A DNA stretch of 64,000 bases from Shigella phage vB_SboS_Gloob: sequence record OL615011, one strand, 5' to 3'. A model generated the notes under the pieces. It was not told the DNA's origin and ran no database searches. It worked only from the letters and a program-made list of their open reading frames with translations. Below are positions 16,269 to 24,263 of this stretch, one piece after another; within the stretch, counting starts at the first letter, position 1; the number at the start of each line of letters is the position of its first letter. A program made the translations under genes and the position numbers.

Positions 16269-18512
16269 TTAGATTTTGATCTCTTTCTCTGCCAGTTCGG
16301 CAGTGACCTTGTACTTCACACCATCCACTTCAACTTCCATGGTGGACTCTTCCAGGTCGAGGTCGGTGAACCAGCCGTGGCCAGCAACGATACCATAAAC
16401 CACTTTAGACAGCGTCTTGTTCAGGGCGCGGACTTCGGTGATGGCCGCCTTGGCAGCAGCGTCGATCCAGTTTTCGATCAGCTGTTTCTGTACGGCTTCA
16501 GGCACGGCAGTGATCGCAGGAGACTTCACGAATGCTTCGTATTCCTTCAGAGCATTGGCGATGAACAAGTCACCCGCATTGAGTTTCTTGTTCTCGGCAA
16601 TCTTCTTCTGTACTGCCGCGATGCTCGGCAGAGAAGACGCTCCAGCGATCTTAACGTTCAGCTCACGGCTCATGTAGACATCCGTGGAGTCCTTCAGTTC
16701 GGTCTTCGGTGAGAAGCCGTAATCACGGATGCCGTAGGAGGACAGGAACTCAGCCGCCTCAGCGCCGTACTGTACTGCCAGGCCTTTGGCGTTGCCTTTG
16801 CCAACCAGTTCATCACGGAAGAACTTCAGCACCTTCTGCTTGCCTTTCAGGGCTTCCAGACGGACATTATCCGCAAAGAACTGAGCAGCACTGATGTTCT
16901 TGACCATGGCGCGGTTGACCAGCGGTACGCTTTCCAGGTTCAGGACAAACACTTCCGGACCACCGAACACATGGACGCCCATCTGGCACAGATTGGTTAC
17001 AACTTCAACATCAGCCCTGAACGGCAGAGTCTTCACGTTGATGATGCCGTCTTTGACGATGGTGTAGTTGCGCCATTGGAAAGTATCCAGTTCTTCAGGC
17101 AGACCGAACTTCTTCTGCACGAACTCCGGAATCGCCACAGTGCCGTGCTGGACAGTGCGTACACTGATATTAGGGCGTTCGGAGTTATAGACCAAATCGC
17201 TGATTGGCACAACACCCAGATCGTTGGTAGGTTCGAACGTCGGGTTCCACTCTTCGTGCTCGGCCAGCTTGAGAGCCAGGGCTTTGCGCTCTTCTTTGGA
17301 CTCGGCGTTCGCGATCTGTTCTGCCAGCTTGTCTTCGGTATCGTCCAGTTTCTGAGCCGTACCGCGACCGATGCTCTTGTAGGAGAACATAGGATGTTTG
17401 GTGGCAACACACACGCCAGCTTCAGCCAGATACGTCAGCACGTCAACGACGGTCGTCGCATCTTCAGCCGGGACCAGGTCATAGTCAATACCGTCAACGC
17501 CGCGCAGCTGGTCATCAACGATGGCCTGGGTCAGATCAACTTTGATGTTGGAGTAGTCCTGCTTGGTGAAGCAGTTGCTGTACTGTTTGATGAAGCGGAC
17601 GTCGCCCGTTTTCTTCAGTGCAGCCCACACCAGGTCTGCGTCCATGATGTGTACGCCGTAGAACGCCAGCACGTATGCCGCCTGGATGTCCGCCAGCGCA
17701 TCAAGTTGGTCGATCATGTTAGGATTGACGACCCACAGCTTCGTGACGCTCTCAGGGATGCTCACGTGGCCAACGGGATGCTCTGCGTCTGCCTGTACCG
17801 CCAGAACAGTTGCTACGCCGTTTTCAACGTAGATGGCATGATCATACAGCAACGGAACATCAACAACCACCTTCGGAACTGAGGACTTCAGCACGGTTTC
17901 CAGCTCGGCCTGATACTCAACCTGACCTTCGGCAAACACGTGAGTCGCACCGGAGCGCTCAGACATCAGAGCCAGCAGTTCGCGGTTACAGTACCAGCCG
18001 TATTCGATGAAAGTGACGTTGTCGAACGCGGAAGGAAGTTTTTCGGCGGTGTCCAGGATCTCATTGGAGCGCCAGCAGTTGTCATAACCATCGGTCATGA
18101 ACGCCAGGTTGTTGACGTAGCCGGGTTTCTTCAGGTCACGCGCAGTATCCATCGCCAGTTTCAATGGCTCAACAAAACCAGTACAGCCGGACGGTTGTAG
18201 GAAGCGGTCGATCAGTTTGTTCAGCTCGCTCAGGTCAGATGCTGCACTAACCTGACGGCCAGCGAACACAGTACCAAAGTCGCCACGGGATGAGAAATAC
18301 AGAACACTCACAGTGTCTTCCGGTTTCACCAGAGAAGGCAGGTTCTCCTTCAGATGCTTACGGACTTCAGGGAGCGCCCGGTACATTGAACCGGAAATGT
18401 CTACAACGATTACATGGTTGGACGGAGCAGCAGTCGCAACCACATTCTTAAATTCTAATGATTCAATCATTGTTCTCTTCGCCTTTTGCGTAAGGGTTAA
18501 GTTCAGACTCAT
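16269..18512 (-). CDS. large protein with N-terminal von Willebrand factor A (vWA) domain
   Basis: MIDAS motif VVVDISGSM near the N-terminus; 747 aa. Confidence 0.5.
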   Translation of the reverse strand: MSLNLTLTQKAKRTMIESLEFKNVVATAAPSNHVIVVDISGSMYRALPEVRKHLKENLPSLVKPEDTVSVLYFSSRGDFGTVFAGRQVSAASDLSELNKLIDRFLQPSGCTGFVEPLKLAMDTARDLKKPGYVNNLAFMTDGYDNCWRSNEILDTAEKLPSAFDNVTFIEYGWYCNRELLALMSERSGATHVFAEGQVEYQAELETVLKSSVPKVVVDVPLLYDHAIYVENGVATVLAVQADAEHPVGHVSIPESVTKLWVVNPNMIDQLDALADIQAAYVLAFYGVHIMDADLVWAALKKTGDVRFIKQYSNCFTKQDYSNIKVDLTQAIVDDQLRGVDGIDYDLVPAEDATTVVDVLTYLAEAGVCVATKHPMFSYKSIGRGTAQKLDDTEDKLAEQIANAESKEERKALALKLAEHEEWNPTFEPTNDLGVVPISDLVYNSERPNISVRTVQHGTVAIPEFVQKKFGLPEELDTFQWRNYTIVKDGIINVKTLPFRADVEVVTNLCQMGVHVFGGPEVFVLNLESVPLVNRAMVKNISAAQFFADNVRLEALKGKQKVLKFFRDELVGKGNAKGLAVQYGAEAAEFLSSYGIRDYGFSPKTELKDSTDVYMSRELNVKIAGASSLPSIAAVQKKIAENKKLNAGDLFIANALKEYEAFVKSPAITAVPEAVQKQLIENWIDAAAKAAITEVRALNKTLSKVVYGIVAGHGWFTDLDLEESTMEVEVDGVKYKVTAELAEKEIKI

Positions 18513-18678
18513 CAGCGGCTTCGATGCGCGCCTTTACAGAGTCCAGCATATTGTTGATAAACTCACGAGACTGCTCCAGCTGAGCCAAGAGCACATCCTT
18601 TGGAGCATAGTTCTGAATGCAAGCCGGAATACTTTCAGACGTCGCCTTCAGGTCGGTAAAACATTCTTTCAGTACCAT
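18463..18678 (-). CDS. hypothetical small acidic protein
   Basis: 71-aa ORF between the vWA gene and the NAMPT-like gene. Confidence 0.3.
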   Translation of the reverse strand: MVLKECFTDLKATSESIPACIQNYAPKDVLLAQLEQSREFINNMLDSVKARIEAADESELNPYAKGEENND

Positions 18679-18755
18679 TTGATCTCACTTAACAGAGACG
18701 ACGCCCTGTTGGATTTAATAGCGGTCTTCACAGACATCAGGTTTACCTCAAAACA

Positions 18756-18771
18756 GGGGAGTCTCCTCCCC
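18756..18771 (-). terminator. hairpin terminator downstream of the NAMPT-like gene
   Basis: ggggagtctcctcccc stem-loop followed by a T-run on the minus strand. Confidence 0.45.
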
Positions 18772-18779
18772 TTCGGTTA

Positions 18780-20444
18780 TCAGATTTGTGATGCCAATTC
18801 TGCCACCAGAGGAGCAGCACGAACACGCGCATCTTCCAGAGTCTGGGTGTTGAAGAACTTGCCGTCACGATACACCAGCTGGTGCTGGTTGTCGGCGTCT
18901 TGCACCTGATCAAAGGTGATACCGTCAACCAACACTAGTTTACCCTGAGAGTCTTTAATGACTTTAAGGAAACCACGCGCAGACTTTTTAGTCCCGCCTT
19001 TGTCGGTCTTCGGCTCTTTGAAGATCTCACGGAATTCGCCGTTCACTTTACCAGCCGTTGCTTTCACTGCCGTGCCAGTACTGTCACGGGTGTTCATCTG
19101 GTAGGTGTAGGAACCGATACCGAACACCACGTTGATGGAAGCAAAGTTCCGGCCAGCCAGACGACCAAAGATCTGGTCTTCACGTGCCAGGGTGATGGAG
19201 TCGCCGTAAATCAGACCGATGTGTTCGTCCAACAGGAAGTGACCAGTTTCGGTCTGGGTCCCGCCAAAGATCTCCCACAGGCGCTGGATAGAGCCGACCG
19301 CTTCTGAACGACTGATGATATTGCGGTCATCTGCCATCAGAGAGTTGATCGTGCCTTCGCCTGTAATCAGGTGATAGGTGTTCGTCTCTTCGATGTGAAT
19401 GACTTCGGTGCTGCTAGACACGCCGCTGATGTTCAGCATAGCGCGGTCTTTGAACCCCTCAATGCGGTAGCCGCCGACGATATGAACTGGGTCGCCCGAG
19501 TCAGGGCGGATCACGACTTTGCCGTTGCGTGCCATGATAATATCTTTCAGGCGCGGCAGATAGTCGTCGATGACCTGCCAGTAATCCCACGCATCAGACA
19601 CGATGCTGACGATGCCATCAGGATACACGTCCTGCACCAGGCGGCGGAAGGTTTCGAATTCACCATCCTTCGTACCCATACACATCACGGCGTGTTCGGT
19701 AGCCGCAACAGAACCAGCAACGACATAGTCTTCGTCGATGTCTGCGCCATAATACTCTTCTACGAAGTCCAGGGCAGGGTTGGTATCGGTGCCTTTGAAG
19801 AACACCAGATGACCGGAACCGGAAGACGCCGCGTCATGCCACCCACTCATACCACGGAAGGAGAAGTCGTGGCCTTGGTAGTCGATGAACCAATGGTCCG
19901 GCGACACGCCTGTAGCGAGGGCAGCTTTCACCATCAGTGCCTTGTAATGCAGAGCGATGGTGGCGTTCGTCATCGGCTTCCAGATCTCAGAGCTGAACAC
20001 AGTCTCCAGATAGTTGGTCAGCCAGTAGAACTCCGGCAGGGTGTTGAACATCACATACACCGGAACGCCATATGGGCACATGGTGCCTTCAGGCAGAGCA
20101 CGGACTTCGATAGGCAGGTAGCCGAGGTCATGCAGGGCTTCAATATGCTCTGTGCCGACGCGGCCTGGACCCAGGACTTTGTTCATGCGACGGGCATACT
20201 TCTTCAACACCTTGGCCTTTGGGCGCTGGAAGAATGCTTCGTCAAACAGTTCGTGGAACCAGGTCATGAAGCCCTGGATGCCCCAGACCACCACGCCGTT
20301 CTTCGGCAGGTGAGAGTTGAACAGTTTGTTGGAGCGCGGAGTTCCGTTGGAGAACACCAGCTCGCTGCCTTCAGGGAACTGATAGATGTGCCCTGATTTG
20401 TAGAAGTCGATTGCATGGATTGGATCTAAGTGGCGCATGCTCAT
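18780..20444 (-). CDS. nicotinamide phosphoribosyltransferase (NAMPT/NadV) family enzyme; candidate nicotinamide ADP-ribose transferase
   Basis: Collinear with human NAMPT: LPIEVRALPEG...EFYWLTNYLETV, HDFSFRG, GHLVFFKGTDT, VIRPDSGDP. Confidence 0.85.
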   Translation of the reverse strand: MSMRHLDPIHAIDFYKSGHIYQFPEGSELVFSNGTPRSNKLFNSHLPKNGVVVWGIQGFMTWFHELFDEAFFQRPKAKVLKKYARRMNKVLGPGRVGTEHIEALHDLGYLPIEVRALPEGTMCPYGVPVYVMFNTLPEFYWLTNYLETVFSSEIWKPMTNATIALHYKALMVKAALATGVSPDHWFIDYQGHDFSFRGMSGWHDAASSGSGHLVFFKGTDTNPALDFVEEYYGADIDEDYVVAGSVAATEHAVMCMGTKDGEFETFRRLVQDVYPDGIVSIVSDAWDYWQVIDDYLPRLKDIIMARNGKVVIRPDSGDPVHIVGGYRIEGFKDRAMLNISGVSSSTEVIHIEETNTYHLITGEGTINSLMADDRNIISRSEAVGSIQRLWEIFGGTQTETGHFLLDEHIGLIYGDSITLAREDQIFGRLAGRNFASINVVFGIGSYTYQMNTRDSTGTAVKATAGKVNGEFREIFKEPKTDKGGTKKSARGFLKVIKDSQGKLVLVDGITFDQVQDADNQHQLVYRDGKFFNTQTLEDARVRAAPLVAELASQI

Positions 20445-21295
20445 TTTACACGTCCTGTATTTTCAGTTTTGAAAGGAAGGCCGTCGGTGGTGATATTCTC
20501 CCACCAGACAGTGTCGGCATACACAGCATCATAGATCCCGTCGAAAACAGAGAGACCTTTGCTGAAGATGCCATGGGTGACGAAGAGCGTCATGTGCTTA
20601 GGCTCGTGCTTCTGAAGCTCTTTACCCAGCTCAACAAACGTGCGCCCGCCATCGCAGATATCATCAACCACCACCAGATAGCGGTCTTTGATCAGTTCAG
20701 GGTTTGTAATGCTCACCCCAATGATCTCACCAGTCTTGGTGTCACGGTTCTTGTGGCCGTAGACAACAGGAACACCATCCAACGACAGGCTGAGGGCTTC
20801 GGTCTTCTTCGCCGCGCCGCCGTCAGGGGCTACTAGCACAGCGTTGTTCCCACGGATGAACCAGCCCAGATACTGCCGCACGATGTAATCTTGCGGGACA
20901 ACATGGACGTTGTTGATCAGAGAAGACACGACATGGCTGTGAGGGTCTTTGATCGCCACGCGGTCAAAGTTCATGCTATTGATGAACTCAGCCGCCCACT
21001 TCACGGACAGAGGCTCGCCGAAGTCGCAATGGCGGTCCTGGCGAGCATACGGGAAGTAAGGGATATACGCATGGAAGGTCGTCAGACGGTCCACGTTACC
21101 CAGGCCGCGCACGGCGTTTACCAGAAGCGCCAGCTCAATGAAGTCGGCTGATGATTTGATGTGGGCATCAATCACAACCGTCTGAATCTTACCGACAGGA
21201 ATACCAGCCTTTTGGATCTTGATATGTTCCTCACCACCTGGGAAGGTGAAGTGTTTGTAGAACACATCTTGGTCGTTCAATTTCAAACGAAACAT
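20441..21295 (-). CDS. ribose-phosphate pyrophosphokinase (PRPP synthetase) family enzyme; candidate ADP-ribose pyrophosphate synthetase
   Basis: IPYFPYARQDRH and VVVDDICDGGRT match Prs motifs; ATGA overlap with the NAMPT-like gene. Confidence 0.8.
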   Translation of the reverse strand: MFRLKLNDQDVFYKHFTFPGGEEHIKIQKAGIPVGKIQTVVIDAHIKSSADFIELALLVNAVRGLGNVDRLTTFHAYIPYFPYARQDRHCDFGEPLSVKWAAEFINSMNFDRVAIKDPHSHVVSSLINNVHVVPQDYIVRQYLGWFIRGNNAVLVAPDGGAAKKTEALSLSLDGVPVVYGHKNRDTKTGEIIGVSITNPELIKDRYLVVVDDICDGGRTFVELGKELQKHEPKHMTLFVTHGIFSKGLSVFDGIYDAVYADTVWWENITTDGLPFKTENTGRVK

Positions 21296-21326
21296 AATGT
21301 AGCCTCATGGTGTATTGTACAGCCGT

Positions 21327-21332
21327 ATTATA
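21327..21332 (-). promoter_or_regulatory. sigma70-type -10 hexamer (TATAAT) upstream of the NAMPT/PRPS operon
   Basis: Perfect TATAAT about 30 nt upstream of the PRPS-like start; -35 is weak. Confidence 0.35.
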
Positions 21333-21401
21333 CTGTGATGCACAAATTGAAACACCCAGCAAATATACTGGGCGTCATTGATATTGAAGGAGTTTACTGA
21401 T

Positions 21402-21768
21402 TCAGGTTTTGGATTGTTCACATACCTCGGCCACCTTGCGACACATGTCGATATCGAACAAGCCAATATGACACTCACGCTTCTTTATCCCCAGCTTATG
21501 CGCCAGCCAACTGTAAGCGTCGCTCCTGCTCCTCTCTCCGCTTTTCCACAATGGGTCAAACGATCTGCTTCTCGGCACGGAGAGCGGCATTCGCCATCCT
21601 TCCCAGAGGTTGTCTGCCGTCGCCATGGGCATGGCAACCGACACGAGCGTCACATGGAGTGCATACCCAGAACTTCAGATTGCGGAGGTCAGGGCGATGA
21701 GGGTGGAGGACGTCACCACCGATGAATTCGGCTGGGAGGCCGCAGTAATCACAGATGACAGGTTTCAT
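21402..21768 (-). pseudogene. zinc-ribbon (CxxC...CxxC) phage protein interrupted by a frameshift
   Basis: N-terminal half (MKPVICDYCG...CTPCDARVG...GRMANAALRAEKQ) and C-terminal half (SFDPLWKSGERSRSDAYSWL...CHIGLFDIDMC) lie in two overlapping frames, one-nucleotide shift near 21560. Confidence 0.45.
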
Positions 21769-21787
21769 ATTCTTTGTCCAAAAGAAA

Positions 21788-21804
21788 CCCCGCACATGGC
21801 GGGG
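21788..21804 (-). terminator. hairpin terminator upstream of the zinc-ribbon gene
   Basis: ccccgcacatggcgggg stem-loop followed by a T-run on the minus strand. Confidence 0.4.
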
Positions 21805-22244: not shown

Positions 22245-24263
22245 TTAGAAAACAACTTTCACAGTGCGGTTGAAAGAGCCGCTCACCTTCACGAACACGT
22301 GGTTGCGTTGGGTGGTAGAGAAGCCCAGACCGGACAGCTGCTCAGTGCTTGGCTGTACTTTAATCTTACCGCCCAACATTTCAAAAACCTTGCGGTGTTT
22401 ATCAAGTTCCGGCTTCAGATACTCGTTATAGAAGCCACGAGTGCCGACAGGGTTAGCACAACCTTCCAGAATGAAGAACACGTGCTTGTTGCCTGTCTGT
22501 TCGCCATCCCAATGGTTTGGTGAGTTCAGAACCAGCTGTACCTTCTGGAAGACAGCGGTCTTGATACCCCAGATTTCCTGGGAGCGAGCATCGTCCTTCA
22601 GGGTAGAACGGATGTCTACCACTTGTCCAGCGCGGACATCAATCACAACAGCCAGAGTGCGATCTTTGTGCTTCAGGCCAGGATGCGAAAAACGCTTGGT
22701 CTGGCCTTTGTATTCAACTTCGATTTCGAAGCCCATATCACAGGTTTCACGCTGGCTGAAGTTAGTGACATAGAACTCGTACAGACCATCACGCAGCTTG
22801 CGTTCATCGCTGAAGAAGATGTTCTCCACCGGGCGGCGGTTGGGGTCAATACCGTCCATACCGTTCATGTCGATATCCAGGGTTGCGCCAGTTGCCGAAC
22901 GACGGTTGTGATAATACACGTGGTTGTGAAGAGGATCGTTCAGGCTCAGATCCAGGTCATCGTTGTTATGCCACGCCAGGGACACACGGAGGAAACCGTC
23001 AACGTTGCCGCCTGCCGTCTTCACGCGCTCTTTGATGGAGTCGGCCACTTCACCGTTGTATGACCAGCTGAAGCCGTTGTTCCACTTGAACAGGTTAGGA
23101 GCACCTGCCGTAGCCGGAGCGATCAGGGACATCAGGTTGCCAGTGTGAGAGTTTTCAACCAGCACTTCCAGGGAATGCGCCTTTGGCAACACGTTGGTCA
23201 GGAAGTCGTCGATGGTGATCTCTTCAACCTTGTCCAGGGACTTGGTCGGAGTCTTCACTTCAGACGCCAGCTGAGCAAACGGGTCCATCTTCTTCTGTGC
23301 TGCCAGGTCGGCAAACAGAACGTTGTTGATGGTCAGATCGTCATACACGGCATAACGGCGACCCAGTGAATCAGTCAGACCCAGCGCTTCGACTTCTTTC
23401 TGCGCGTTTTCAATCATGGACTTCGTGACCAGCGCGGTTGGGCGCTTGTAGTTCGTCGGAGCGACTTTGGCTTCAAAGGACTTCACGGCGGTTTCCAGAT
23501 CCCGACCTTCATTGAGGTCTACCAACAGAGAGCCAATCACGGTATTGCGGATGCCGTGAGGGGTGTGTCCGTTTGCACGGTAGCCAGTACGCCAAGCCCA
23601 CAGAGCGCGTTTCTCTTCTGCAGTTTGTTCGTACAGGGTCTTGCTCGTCACGAACGCCTGCACAGCAGCTTTGTGCTCTTCACCACGATACAGAGAATTC
23701 TGATCAATCAGTTCCAGAACGATTTCGGCCGATTCCAGAGACAGTTCACGCAGGCCGCGCTCAAACACTTCAATCGCCTGGCGGATTTCACCCTTCTTAG
23801 AAGCGATGGCATCAGCCCGCAGAACATAGCTGGGCAGCAGGTCGGTGTGGAAGTGGTTGTAGGTGCGGACATTACCGTCTTTCATTTCGTGATTCGACTC
23901 AACGCCGACTTTCTTGGTATCGTTGAAGTACACGTCGACGATTGCGTGTTGCTTGACATACGCAGACAGCGCCGCAGCGACAACGTCGTATTCGTTACCC
24001 AGCTGAATGTTATCCCAGATAGAGATCACGTTCAGGTCGGCGTCGATGGTCACCACACCGCCGATGTTACGGATGAATTGTTTACAGCAGGTGCAGTCGT
24101 GCTCGGTGCGCTCACGGTAGAGCGGGTTGGTGCCAGCAGGGAAAGAGTTCAGATACAGATCCCACAGAGCATCTTTATCGATGTTGGTCATGAACAGACC
24201 AGTTGCTGACATGGCCAGCACATTATTGTTTACGGCTACTGCGAAGGGCTTAAATTCTGACAT
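22245..24263 (-). CDS. large hypothetical protein (672 aa)
   Basis: No polymerase, ligase or P-loop motif recognised by eye; contains a CTCC cysteine cluster. Confidence 0.5.
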   Translation of the reverse strand: MSEFKPFAVAVNNNVLAMSATGLFMTNIDKDALWDLYLNSFPAGTNPLYRERTEHDCTCCKQFIRNIGGVVTIDADLNVISIWDNIQLGNEYDVVAAALSAYVKQHAIVDVYFNDTKKVGVESNHEMKDGNVRTYNHFHTDLLPSYVLRADAIASKKGEIRQAIEVFERGLRELSLESAEIVLELIDQNSLYRGEEHKAAVQAFVTSKTLYEQTAEEKRALWAWRTGYRANGHTPHGIRNTVIGSLLVDLNEGRDLETAVKSFEAKVAPTNYKRPTALVTKSMIENAQKEVEALGLTDSLGRRYAVYDDLTINNVLFADLAAQKKMDPFAQLASEVKTPTKSLDKVEEITIDDFLTNVLPKAHSLEVLVENSHTGNLMSLIAPATAGAPNLFKWNNGFSWSYNGEVADSIKERVKTAGGNVDGFLRVSLAWHNNDDLDLSLNDPLHNHVYYHNRRSATGATLDIDMNGMDGIDPNRRPVENIFFSDERKLRDGLYEFYVTNFSQRETCDMGFEIEVEYKGQTKRFSHPGLKHKDRTLAVVIDVRAGQVVDIRSTLKDDARSQEIWGIKTAVFQKVQLVLNSPNHWDGEQTGNKHVFFILEGCANPVGTRGFYNEYLKPELDKHRKVFEMLGGKIKVQPSTEQLSGLGFSTTQRNHVFVKVSGSFNRTVKVVF

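What the first reader, a model, noticed from the sequence alone, without database searches (positions are those of the whole stretch)
18756..21332. Compact NAMPT-family + PRPP-synthetase-family operon: candidate phage NAD+ reconstitution (anti-defence) module
Two translationally coupled genes (ATGA overlap) sit between a sigma70-type TATAAT and a terminator hairpin. One is a clear NAMPT/NadV homologue and the other a clear ribose-phosphate pyrophosphokinase homologue. This is the enzyme pairing reported for the phage NAD+ reconstitution pathway NARP1, where a Prs-like enzyme pyrophosphorylates ADP-ribose and a NAMPT-like enzyme condenses the product with nicotinamide to rebuild NAD+, countering NAD+-depleting defences such as Thoeris, DSR and other SIR2 or TIR effectors. 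The apparent early-type promoter fits a counter-defence role, whereas plain NAD salvage would usually be annotated here. The sequence alone cannot distinguish Adps/Namat from canonical Prs/NadV.
Basis: partly seen in the sequence, partly recalled or inferred. Interest (0 to 1): 0.85.

Follow-up and report, generated by a model that had tools for sequence, protein, structure and literature searches.

The report
Phage NAD+ rebuilding operon (NARP1)
This is a two-gene phage operon that most likely rebuilds NAD+ from the fragments left by bacterial NAD+-destroying defences; it is real and intact, but the same operon in near-identical phages is already catalogued in the literature.

Summary
On the minus strand, a 284-aa Prs-like gene (20441-21295) and a 554-aa NAMPT-like gene (18780-20444) overlap by ATGA. 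A conserved TATAAT hexamer lies upstream and a conserved hairpin with a short U-run lies downstream.

The window is an Agtrevirus (Ackermannviridae) genome. Both proteins are identical to those of Shigella phage vB_SboS_Gloob. They are 97.9% and 99.6% identical to the Salmonella phage P46FS4 pair, which Osterman et al. already list as a NARP1 pair (Adps clade with a Namat neighbour; Namat "Adps-associated").

My own tests agree:
- The Prs-like protein falls below every NCBIfam Prs cut-off and groups with validated Adps enzymes, away from four canonical Prs (97/100 bootstraps).
- It keeps the catalytic lysine (K182).
- The NAMPT-like protein groups with Namat, not with KVP40-type NadV (200/200 bootstraps).
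- Its best sequence and fold match is the Namat crystal structure 9W5X.
- It carries the Namat clamp motif (GSYTYQMNTRD). One position is Met instead of an aromatic residue, as in 13 of its 120 nearest homologues.

No Macro-domain or RyR-domain accessory gene is adjacent, so this is the core two-gene pathway. "Early promoter" is not shown. Enzyme activity in this lineage is inferred, not measured.

Verdict: already known, low interest.

The parts
20441..21295 (-). adps: 284-aa Prs-family enzyme, predicted ADP-ribose diphosphokinase (ADPR + ATP -> ADPR-PP)
   Evidence: ORF. It matches phrog_619 at E=5e-91 and is below every NCBIfam Prs cut-off, for example TIGR01251 at 106.5 against 113. It is 97.9% identical to the P46FS4 Adps and 37% identical to the Bas63 Adps. 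It groups in the Adps clade in 97/100 bootstraps.
18780..20444 (-). namat: 554-aa NAMPT-family enzyme, predicted nicotinamide ADPR-transferase (ADPR-PP + nicotinamide -> NAD+)
   Evidence: ORF. Its best PDB sequence match is 9W5X, the SPbetaL1 Namat, at E=3e-135, against about 1e-49 for mammalian NAMPT. It is 99.6% identical to the P46FS4 Namat. It groups in the Namat clade in 200/200 bootstraps. The AF2 model has pLDDT 93.5, and its best fold match is 9W5X at TM 0.95.
20441..20444 (-). ATGA stop/start overlap that couples adps and namat
   Evidence: Read directly from the sequence. An AGGA ribosome-binding site lies 8 nt upstream of the namat ATG.
21327..21332 (-). TATAAT -10 hexamer, 31 nt upstream of the adps ATG; there is no matching -35
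   Evidence: Located. It is invariant in five related phages. The scan found no two-hexamer sigma-70 promoter here.
21303..21306 (-). GAGG ribosome-binding site of adps, 7 nt before the ATG
   Evidence: Read from the sequence.
21296..21405 (-). Conserved 110-nt leader/promoter region of the operon. It includes a small hairpin (CCCAG-TATATTTG-CTGGG, 21372->21355) followed by a T-rich run.
   Evidence: About 97% identical to P46FS4 and ChubbyThor, and homology to all relatives ends at about 21405.
18750..18772 (-). Intrinsic-terminator-like hairpin (7-bp stem with 6 G-C pairs, GAGA loop) plus GUUUUG, 7 nt after the namat stop codon
   Evidence: Folds at -17.2 kcal/mol, z = -2.7. It is conserved in five phages, with loop-only variation in ChubbyThor, and is annotated as a terminator in phage May.
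19083..19115 (-). Namat selectivity-clamp helix motif (SCH), aa 444-454: GSYTYQMNTRD
   Evidence: The motif is defined in PMC12774641. It was aligned to SPbetaL1 G390-D400. It is present in 120 of the 120 nearest homologues, with Met at position 7 in 13 of them.
20295..20342 (-). Namat selectivity-clamp loop (SCL), aa 35-50: TPRSNKLFNSHLPKNG. K40 aligns with SPbetaL1 R40.
19296..19469 (-). 58-aa insertion in Namat (aa 326-383) relative to the SPbetaL1 Namat; predicted to be a folded small alpha/beta subdomain
   Evidence: Seen in the alignments and shared with AV123 and Bas63. pLDDT is about 85-96, with three strands and three helices.
20750..20752 (-). Adps catalytic lysine K182, equivalent to SPbetaL1 K162 and E. 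coli Prs K194
   Evidence: Alignment. The K162A mutant of the SPbetaL1 enzyme is inactive (paper).

Best explanation
This is a core two-gene NARP1 operon (NAD+ reconstitution pathway 1) of an Agtrevirus phage.

Proposed mechanism. When a host defence such as SIR2-HerA/Nezha, DSR1/2, type I Thoeris or SEFIR cleaves NAD+ into ADP-ribose and nicotinamide, the first enzyme (Adps) uses ATP to pyrophosphorylate the free ribose of ADP-ribose, giving ADPR-PP. The second enzyme (Namat) replaces that pyrophosphate with nicotinamide and regenerates NAD+ directly, without needing host NMN adenylyltransferases. The two genes are made from one transcript. That transcript starts in the conserved 110-nt leader, the genes are translationally coupled by ATGA, and it ends at the hairpin 7 nt after namat.

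What is shown here: gene structure, family and clade membership, active-site and clamp residues, purifying selection, and near-identity to a catalogued pair.

What is inferred from validated homologues (Bas63, SPbetaL1, FADO, ICP1, DyoEdafos): the two reactions and the anti-defence phenotype.
For: - Gene order adps->namat with an ATGA overlap, as in Bas63 genes 79-80, ICP1, the Kayvirus SAM2 and AV123.
- The pair is 97.9% and 99.6% identical to the P46FS4 pair, which is listed as NARP1 in Osterman et al.'s tables.
- The Adps candidate is below all NCBIfam Prs cut-offs.
- All Adps-like sequences, including the window's, are monophyletic against E. coli, M. smegmatis, S. solfataricus and human Prs in 97/100 bootstraps. 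The validated Bas63, ICP1, SPbetaL1 and FADO enzymes branch outside the window's subclade, so they bracket it.
- The catalytic lysine is conserved, and the DPHS and DDICDGGRTF signatures are shared with Bas63 Adps but not with Prs.
- Namat matches phage proteins in two bands: 37-46% identity to NARP1-type proteins and 24-29% to NARP2-type NadV. The clade has 200/200 bootstrap support.
- All nicotinamide- and ribose-phosphate-binding residues are conserved.
- The clamp motif GS-Y-T-Y-Q-M-N-TRD is present.
- The best sequence and fold match is Namat 9W5X.
- dN/dS is 0.02-0.09 against Agtrevirus relatives.
- The biochemistry and phenotypes of homologues are documented.
- A review already links the Agtrevirus genes to NARP1.
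Against: - No enzyme from this lineage has been assayed. The nearest validated Adps (Bas63) is only 37% identical and the nearest validated Namat about 43%.
- One of the two clamp positions described as aromatic is Met (M450), and the loop residue after K40 is Leu rather than the Trp of Bas63.
- HdNadV (PDB 9KE8), which by its deposited name is a NadV crystallised with NMN, sits inside the same clade in my small tree. Clade membership alone therefore does not fix substrate choice.
- Namat enzymes can also make NMN from PRPP in vitro.
- My Prs outgroup had only four sequences, three of them partial.
- Expression timing is unknown.
Confidence: 0.85

Rival explanations
1. Ordinary NAD+ salvage. 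The first enzyme is a true PRPP synthetase and the second a true NadV/NAMPT that makes NMN. Host NadR or PncC then finish NAD+ synthesis, as the database annotations imply.
For: - Public records name the genes ribose-phosphate pyrophosphokinase and nicotinamide phosphoribosyltransferase.
- The second protein passes the NCBIfam equivalog NF006629 (470 bits against a cut-off of 405).
- Namat enzymes can make NMN from PRPP in vitro.
- HdNadV (PDB 9KE8) lies in the same clade.
Against: - The first protein is below every Prs model cut-off and lies in the Adps clade.
- The purified SPbetaL1 Adps made ADPR-PP from ADPR plus ATP but gave no measurable product in the test of Prs activity.
- Bas63 still overcame the defence in a pncC nadR double mutant.
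- The window protein has the aromatic clamp residue Y446, where HdNadV has Gln and NAMPT has Ala or Gly.
- 97% of Adps-clade genes sit next to a Namat, whereas bacterial prs genes rarely do.
Confidence: 0.06
2. The chemistry is the same (ADPR + nicotinamide -> NAD+), but the main role is housekeeping for the phage rather than counter-defence. It would recycle ADPR and nicotinamide released by the phage's own or the host's NAD+-consuming enzymes to sustain replication in any host.
For: - Related Ackermannviridae encode an RNA polymerase ADP-ribosylase close to this locus (Det7 gene 48).
- The operon is under strong purifying selection.
- NARP2 raises NAD+ even without a defence system.
Against: - In Bas63 infections, ADPR-PP appeared only when the NAD+-depleting system was present.
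- The operon is dispensable: it is absent from Det7 and destroyed by internal deletions in Ag3 and the Limestoneviruses. It is present in only 8 of 14 Agtrevirus genomes. This pattern fits an accessory arms-race gene better than a housekeeping one.
Confidence: 0.07

Closest known systems
NARP1 pairs of Salmonella phages P46FS4 and SKML-39 and Shigella phages MK-13 and ChubbyThor (Agtrevirus), as listed in Osterman et al. 2024, Tables S1/S2
   Same: Same genes, same order, same ATGA overlap, same leader and terminator. Protein identity is 97.9-99.6%. The window's proteins are identical to those of Shigella phage vB_SboS_Gloob.
   Different: Only the surroundings differ. The gp49/66-family gene that lies directly upstream of adps in those phages is missing here, and the next gene (DUF3268) carries an 11-bp frameshifting deletion.
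Bas63 (JohannRWettstein) NARP1, genes 79-80: validated in vivo
   Same: Two-gene adps->namat operon. The Adps signatures DPHS and DDICDGGRTF are shared. Both Namats have an insertion after the PDSGDP strand, a K-x-F type clamp loop, and the GSYTYQ.xTRD motif.
   Different: Identity is 37% for Adps and 43% for Namat. Bas63 has Tyr at clamp position 7 and Trp after the loop Lys, whereas the window has Met and Leu. The Bas63 genes are separated by 45 nt rather than overlapping.
SPbetaL1 Adps and Namat (biochemically characterised; Namat crystal structures 9W5X and 9W5W)
   Same: All nicotinamide-, ribose-phosphate- and phosphate-contacting residues are conserved. The fold matches at TM 0.95 and rmsd 2.0 A. 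The catalytic Lys of Adps is conserved.
   Different: Identity is 33% for Adps and about 42% for Namat. SPbetaL1 lacks the 58-aa insertion. Its clamp residue R40 is K40 in the window, and its Y396 is M450.
NARP2 (KVP40-type Nampt plus Nmnat)
   Same: Nampt belongs to the same NAMPT superfamily, and the outcome is the same: NAD+ is restored during infection.
   Different: Identity is only 24-29%. The protein belongs to a separate clade. The motif is GGGLLQ..(D/N/T)RD without clamp aromatics. No Prs-like neighbour is present, and the enzyme prefers PRPP.
Extended NARP1 (NARP1-AP with the Macro-domain phosphatase Adpp; NARP1 with the RyR-domain glycosidase RyDEP)
   Same: The Adps and Namat core is the same.
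   Different: No Macro-domain or RyR-domain protein lies among the flanking ORFs. This phage should therefore be unable to use ADPR-1''-phosphate or cyclic ADPR as input (inference).
Class I ribose-phosphate diphosphokinase (E. coli Prs) and mammalian NAMPT
   Same: Same folds and same catalytic chemistry (pyrophosphoryl transfer and phosphoribosyl-type transfer). The RQDR loop and the catalytic Lys are conserved in Adps, and the catalytic His and Asp/Arg core are conserved in Namat.
   Different: Identity to Prs is 27% and to NAMPT about 25%. Adps has DPHS where Prs has DLH(A/T), and it lacks the Thr of the DTGGT 5-phosphate loop. Namat has aromatic clamp residues where NAMPT has Ala, Leu and Lys.

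Membership tests
NARP1 - Adps | Belongs to the Adps clade, separate from cellular Prs | tested here: met
   In a neighbour-joining tree of 45 sequences, all Adps-like proteins including the window's are monophyletic against four Prs in 97/100 bootstraps. The 97.9%-identical P46FS4 protein is listed in the published Adps table.
NARP1 - Adps | A Namat homologue lies in the immediate vicinity (within ten genes) | tested here: met
   The next gene is namat, and the two overlap by ATGA.
NARP1 - Adps | Catalytic lysine (SPbetaL1 K162; the K162A mutant is inactive) | tested here: met
   Window K182 aligns with SPbetaL1 K162 and E. coli Prs K194.
NARP1 - Adps | Pyrophosphorylates ADPR to ADPR-PP and does not make PRPP | not testable with these tools
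   This needs purified protein and LC-MS. It has been shown only for SPbetaL1 and, by in vivo metabolomics, for Bas63.
NARP1 - Namat | Belongs to the Adps-associated Namat clade, not the Nmnat-associated Nampt clade | tested here: met
   Identity is 37-46% to NARP1-type proteins and 24-29% to NARP2-type. The clade has 200/200 bootstrap support. The P46FS4 orthologue is labelled 'Adps-associated'.
NARP1 - Namat | Nampt-like catalytic core (SPbetaL1 D13, Y15, F189, R192, D215, the catalytic His in ATEH, R306, D308) | tested here: met
   All are conserved: window D13, Y15, F194, R197, D220, H251, R313 and D315.
NARP1 - Namat | Clamp helix motif GS-X-phi-X-phi-X-phi-TRD with an aromatic residue at position 3 | tested here: met
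   The window has GSYTYQMNTRD, with Y446 at position 3. NARP2-type and mammalian enzymes have Gly or Ala there.
NARP1 - Namat | Aromatic residue at clamp helix position 7 (SPbetaL1 Y396) | tested here: not met
   The window has M450. Met occurs at this position in 13 of the 120 nearest homologues. The paper calls the X positions 'most often' aromatic, and single clamp mutations reduced activity only about 1.3-1.7-fold.
NARP1 - Namat | The third residue of the clamp loop is Arg, Lys or Tyr and provides or precedes a residue that stacks on adenine | tested here: inconclusive
   K40 satisfies the third-residue rule. The next residue is Leu (Trp in Bas63), followed by Phe. S-x-[KR]-L-[AF] is the commonest loop among homologues. 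Stacking cannot be judged without a ligand-bound dimer.
NARP1 - Namat | Prefers ADPR-PP over PRPP and forms NAD+ directly | not testable with these tools
   A competition assay is required.
NARP1-AP / RyDEP-extended NARP1 | A Macro-domain (PF01661, PF14519 or PF20016) or RyR-domain (PF02026) gene within two genes of the operon | tested here: not met
   A Pfam scan of the flanking ORFs found only DUF3268, VWA or nothing.
NARP2 | KVP40-type Nampt clade with an Nmnat elsewhere in the genome | tested here: not met
   The window protein lies outside that clade. I did not search for Nmnat outside the immediate neighbours. Osterman et al. found no phage that encodes both pathways.
Canonical ribose-phosphate diphosphokinase (Prs) | Reaches the curated NCBIfam score for a Prs model | tested here: not met
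   TIGR01251 scores 106.5 against a cut-off of 113. The equivalog models score 46-94 bits against cut-offs of 296-536.
Canonical NadV/NAMPT | Reaches the curated NCBIfam score (NF006629) | tested here: met
   The score is 470.5 against a cut-off of 405. I judge this uninformative, because a protein that groups with Namat in the other tests also passes it.

The most novel reading that the evidence does not exclude
The 58-aa folded insertion (aa 326-383) is shared by this Namat with those of AV123 and Bas63, and this lineage also has non-aromatic clamp residues (L41, M450). Together these could give the enzyme a property that the insertion-free SPbetaL1 Namat lacks. Examples would be docking of Adps to channel the labile ADPR-PP, or a broader range of donor substrates. 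In that case this would be a functional variant of NARP1 rather than a plain copy.
Probability: 0.07. Interest if true: 0.45.

Novelty: already known. Interest (0 to 1): 0.2.

Why it matters
NARP1 lets phages survive NAD+-depleting immunity (SIR2-HerA/Nezha, DSR, Thoeris, SEFIR and others). Knowing that a given therapeutic or biocontrol phage carries an intact copy helps to predict its host range.

For this window the practical value is correct annotation. The public records still name the genes PRPP synthetase and NAMPT. A testable prediction also follows: without the Macro-domain phosphatase, the phage should remain sensitive to aRES-type defence.

It does not open a new question. The pathway, its distribution in Agtrevirus and the sequence signatures are all published.

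Tried and rejected
- The sigma-70 promoter scan found no two-hexamer promoter for the operon. I looked by eye for a -35 hexamer, an extended -10, a T4 MotA box and a T4 late TATAAATA, and none fits. The 'early promoter' claim is therefore left open.
- The terminator scan missed the hairpin because of its T-run rule, so I checked it by folding and by conservation instead.
- PADLOC gave nothing relevant.
- A literature search for an Ackermannviridae transcriptome returned nothing usable, and so did a search for a paper on PDB 9KE8.
- Pairwise scores alone did not separate Adps from Prs. The window protein scores 64 bits against FADO Adps and 73 bits against E. coli Prs, so I built a tree.
- My first motif regex was wrong and was corrected.
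- The dN/dS for namat against phage May was inconsistent with the 93% protein identity (dN 0.20). This is probably a local register problem, so I did not use it.
- I considered that the Ag3-type 547-aa fusion (phrog_12872) might mean the window genes are a split of a single gene. I rejected this. The fusion lacks Adps residues 223-284 and Namat residues 1-226, including the nicotinamide pocket, so it is a deletion product.
- I did not use the search of protein representatives, the metagenome scans or the third homology search, because the published analysis and my trees already answered the question.
Full report
**What is there.** The window is part of an Ackermannviridae phage genome of the genus Agtrevirus. 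The region 18700-21400 is 95-97% identical to Salmonella phage P46FS4, Shigella phages ChubbyThor and MK-13, and Salmonella phage SKML-39. The two encoded proteins are identical to UHS64967.1 and UHS64966.1 of Shigella phage vB_SboS_Gloob.

On the minus strand, a 284-aa gene (20441-21295) is followed by a 554-aa gene (18780-20444). The stop of the first and the start of the second share ATGA. Pfam, PHROGs and PDB searches place the first protein in the ribose-phosphate diphosphokinase family and the second in the NAMPT family, with E-values down to 1e-193.

**Regulatory signals.** A perfect TATAAT lies 31 nt upstream of the first ATG (21332->21327), followed by a GAGG ribosome-binding site. 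The whole 110-nt leader (21296-21405) is conserved in P46FS4, ChubbyThor, AV101 and the more distant Klebsiella phage May, and TATAAT is invariant in all of them.
- There is no usable -35 hexamer, and the consensus scan found no two-hexamer promoter.
- TATAAT is rare in the window: 16 copies against about 30 expected.
- At least five of the copies are intergenic and point at a gene start 30-130 nt away. This suggests that such hexamers are real -10 elements in this phage.
- Nothing in the sequence says 'early', and I found no transcriptome for this family.

Downstream, the hairpin AGGGGAG-GAGA-CUCCCCU followed by GUUUUG (18772->18750) begins 7 nt after the stop codon. It folds at -17.2 kcal/mol with z = -2.7. 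It is conserved in all five phages and is annotated as a terminator in phage May.

**Which kind of enzyme pair.** NARP1 was defined by Osterman et al. Adps pyrophosphorylates ADP-ribose to ADPR-PP, and Namat joins ADPR-PP to nicotinamide to give NAD+. Phages with the pair overcome SIR2-HerA, DSR1/2, Thoeris and SEFIR. Their supplementary tables list the P46FS4 and SKML-39 proteins as Adps-clade with a Namat neighbour and as 'Adps-associated' Namat. The window proteins are 97.9% and 99.6% identical to the P46FS4 pair.

**Independent tests of the first protein.**
- It scores below every curated NCBIfam Prs model. TIGR01251 gives 106.5 bits against a cut-off of 113, and the equivalog models give 46-94 bits against cut-offs of 296-536.
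- In a neighbour-joining tree, all Adps-like sequences including the window's separate from E. coli, M. smegmatis, S. solfataricus and human Prs in 97 of 100 bootstraps.
- In that tree the validated Bas63, ICP1, SPbetaL1 and FADO enzymes branch outside the window's subclade, so validated members bracket it.
- The catalytic lysine is kept (K182, equivalent to SPbetaL1 K162). The protein shares DPHS and DDICDGGRTF with Bas63 Adps, where Prs has DLH(A/T) and DD..DTGGT.

**Independent tests of the second protein.**
- tblastn against 50,697 phage records gives three identity bands. There are 86 records at 80% or more. Proteins of the NARP1 type from ICP1, Kayvirus, Felixounavirus and others match at 37-46%, and KVP40-type or T4-type Nampt at 24-29%.
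- The sampled loci of the 37-46% band have a Prs-like gene immediately upstream. Those of the 24-29% band do not.
- The Namat clade is recovered in 200 of 200 bootstraps.
- All residues that contact nicotinamide and the ribose phosphate in the SPbetaL1 Namat structure are conserved.
- The best PDB sequence hit is that structure, 9W5X, at E=3e-135, against about 1e-49 for mammalian NAMPT.
- An AlphaFold2 model (pLDDT 93.5) superposes on 9W5X at TM 0.95 and rmsd 2.0 A, ahead of HdNadV and mammalian NAMPT.

**The selectivity clamp.** Lan et al. (PMC12774641) showed that ADPR-PP specificity depends on a clamp. [quoted passage not shown]

The window protein reads GSYTYQMNTRD. Position 3 is Tyr and position 5 is Tyr, but position 7 is Met. 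The loop reads S-N-K-L-F, so the third residue is Lys as the rule requires, and it is followed by Leu where Bas63 has Trp.

Among the 120 closest homologues in a 5.8-billion-protein collection:
- all carry the motif;
- position 3 is always Tyr or Phe, and position 5 is always Tyr;
- position 7 is Met in 13, spread over several sequence groups;
- S-x-[KR]-L-[AF] is the commonest loop.

The window's clamp therefore lies within normal family variation. Single clamp mutations had only 1.3-1.7-fold effects in vitro.

One caution applies. HdNadV (9KE8), deposited as a NadV in complex with NMN, falls inside the same clade in my small tree. It has Gln and Arg at positions 3 and 7. Clade membership alone therefore does not prove substrate choice; the clamp residues and the Adps partner carry the argument.

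**Extended versions.** Some NARP1 operons include a Macro-domain phosphatase (Adpp, which counters aRES defence) or a RyR-domain glycosidase (RyDEP, which degrades Thoeris signals). The ORFs flanking the window operon match only DUF3268, VWA or no Pfam family. This is the core two-gene form, and I predict by inference that it cannot rescue the phage from aRES.

**Selection and evolution.** Both genes are under strong purifying selection relative to Agtrevirus relatives: dN/dS is 0.05-0.09 for adps and 0.02-0.03 for namat.

The operon is nevertheless dispensable and patchy.
- It is present in 8 of 14 Agtrevirus genomes.
- It is absent from Kuttervirus Det7, where homology breaks at 18474 and 21414.
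- It is present in Kuttervirus allotria at 93.5% identity over 18745-21395, while the left flank is 76% and the right flank 87% identical.
- It is destroyed by internal deletions in Shigella phage Ag3, where Adps 1-222 is fused in frame to Namat 227-554. This fusion is phrog_12872.
- It is also destroyed in the Limestoneviruses, where a 110-aa remnant joins the first codons of adps to Namat 450-554.

This pattern fits an accessory arms-race module.

**Mechanism and confidence.** I assign 0.85 to the NARP1 mechanism. Gene structure, clade membership, residues and selection are shown here. The two reactions and the counter-defence phenotype are inferred from homologues that are 33-45% identical.

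There are two rivals. The first is literal PRPP/NMN salvage (0.06). It is contradicted by the Adps clade placement, by the Bas63 result in a pncC nadR double mutant and by the clamp. The second is a housekeeping recycling role with the same chemistry (0.07). It is contradicted by the operon's dispensability and by ADPR-PP appearing only when a defence system is active.

**Novelty.** The pathway, its presence in these very phages and the explicit link between Agtrevirus NAMPT/RPPK genes and NARP1 are all published. The finding is a correct re-identification, useful for fixing annotation, but it is not new.

Noticed in passing
window 21402-21795 (-): A DUF3268 zinc-finger gene (PF11672) is split into two overlapping ORFs. 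One matches profile positions 2-66 and the other 70-120. The cause is an 11-bp deletion (GAAAAGCCCAT, junction at 21566/21567) relative to ChubbyThor and P46FS4. This could be a pseudogene, a sequencing error or a tolerated frameshift.
   Followed up: partly
window 21405-21433: In P46FS4, ChubbyThor, May and allotria, a gene of roughly 730-800 bp lies directly upstream of adps. Pfam assigns the P46FS4 copy to the N4 Gp49/Sf6 gene 66 family (PF13876), and phage May's record carries the same family note. That gene is absent here, and only 27 bp remain between the homology blocks. AV101 carries a different 550-bp filler. The position just upstream of the operon is a variable hot spot.
   Followed up: partly
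P0129 (Shigella phage Ag3); L015:3189-3521 and L014:3689-4021 (Dickeya Limestoneviruses): NARP1 has been destroyed independently by internal in-frame deletions. In Ag3, Adps 1-222 is fused to Namat 227-554, giving a 547-aa protein that is the basis of phrog_12872. In PP35 and phiDP23.1, a 110-aa remnant (MFRLKLN|TRDSTG...) retains the promoter and the terminator. Escherichia phage RPN242 keeps only a fragment covering aa 375-418.
   Followed up: partly
window 18745-21395 vs L016 (Kuttervirus allotria) and L010 (Kuttervirus Det7): The cassette, bounded by the terminator and the leader, is 93.5% identical to a phage of another subfamily, while the flanks are 76% and 87% identical. Det7 lacks it altogether. 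This is compatible either with exchange of the cassette as a unit or with much stronger constraint on it than on the neighbouring vWA gene.
   Followed up: partly
window 19296-19469 (-), Namat aa 326-383: A 58-aa insertion relative to the SPbetaL1 Namat is confidently predicted as a small folded alpha/beta subdomain. A homologous insertion is present in AV123 and a longer one in Bas63. Its function is unknown.
   Followed up: partly
PDB 9KE8/9KEO (HdNadV) compared with window Namat: A protein deposited as NadV and crystallised with NMN groups inside the Namat clade. It has GAQTYQRNTRD, with Gln and Arg at the two adenine-stacking positions. It may be a natural example of a Namat-like scaffold without the clamp.
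   Followed up: no
window 21327, 25632, 28520, 32687 (-) and 29428 (+): TATAAT is under-represented overall (16 copies against about 30 expected), yet at least five copies are intergenic and face a gene start 30-130 nt downstream. None has a good -35 hexamer. These are possibly the phage's host-RNA-polymerase promoters.
   Followed up: partly
window 21355-21372 (-): A small conserved hairpin (CCCAG-TATATTTG-CTGGG) followed by TGTTTCAATTT lies just upstream of the TATAAT of the operon. It could be a weak terminator for the upstream gene or a regulatory element.
   Followed up: no
window 16269-18512 (-) and 22245-24263 (-): The large neighbouring genes are a 747-aa protein with an N-terminal vWA domain (MIDAS motif DISGS) and a 672-aa protein with no Pfam match, which ChubbyThor annotates as a putative RNA polymerase. 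The vWA gene is the fastest-diverging gene in the neighbourhood, at 76% identity to allotria.
   Followed up: no
window 18475-18724: The short stretch between the operon terminator and the vWA gene contains a 71-aa ORF at 18463-18678. It does not align with ChubbyThor or Det7 and is a second variable spot flanking the cassette.
   Followed up: no
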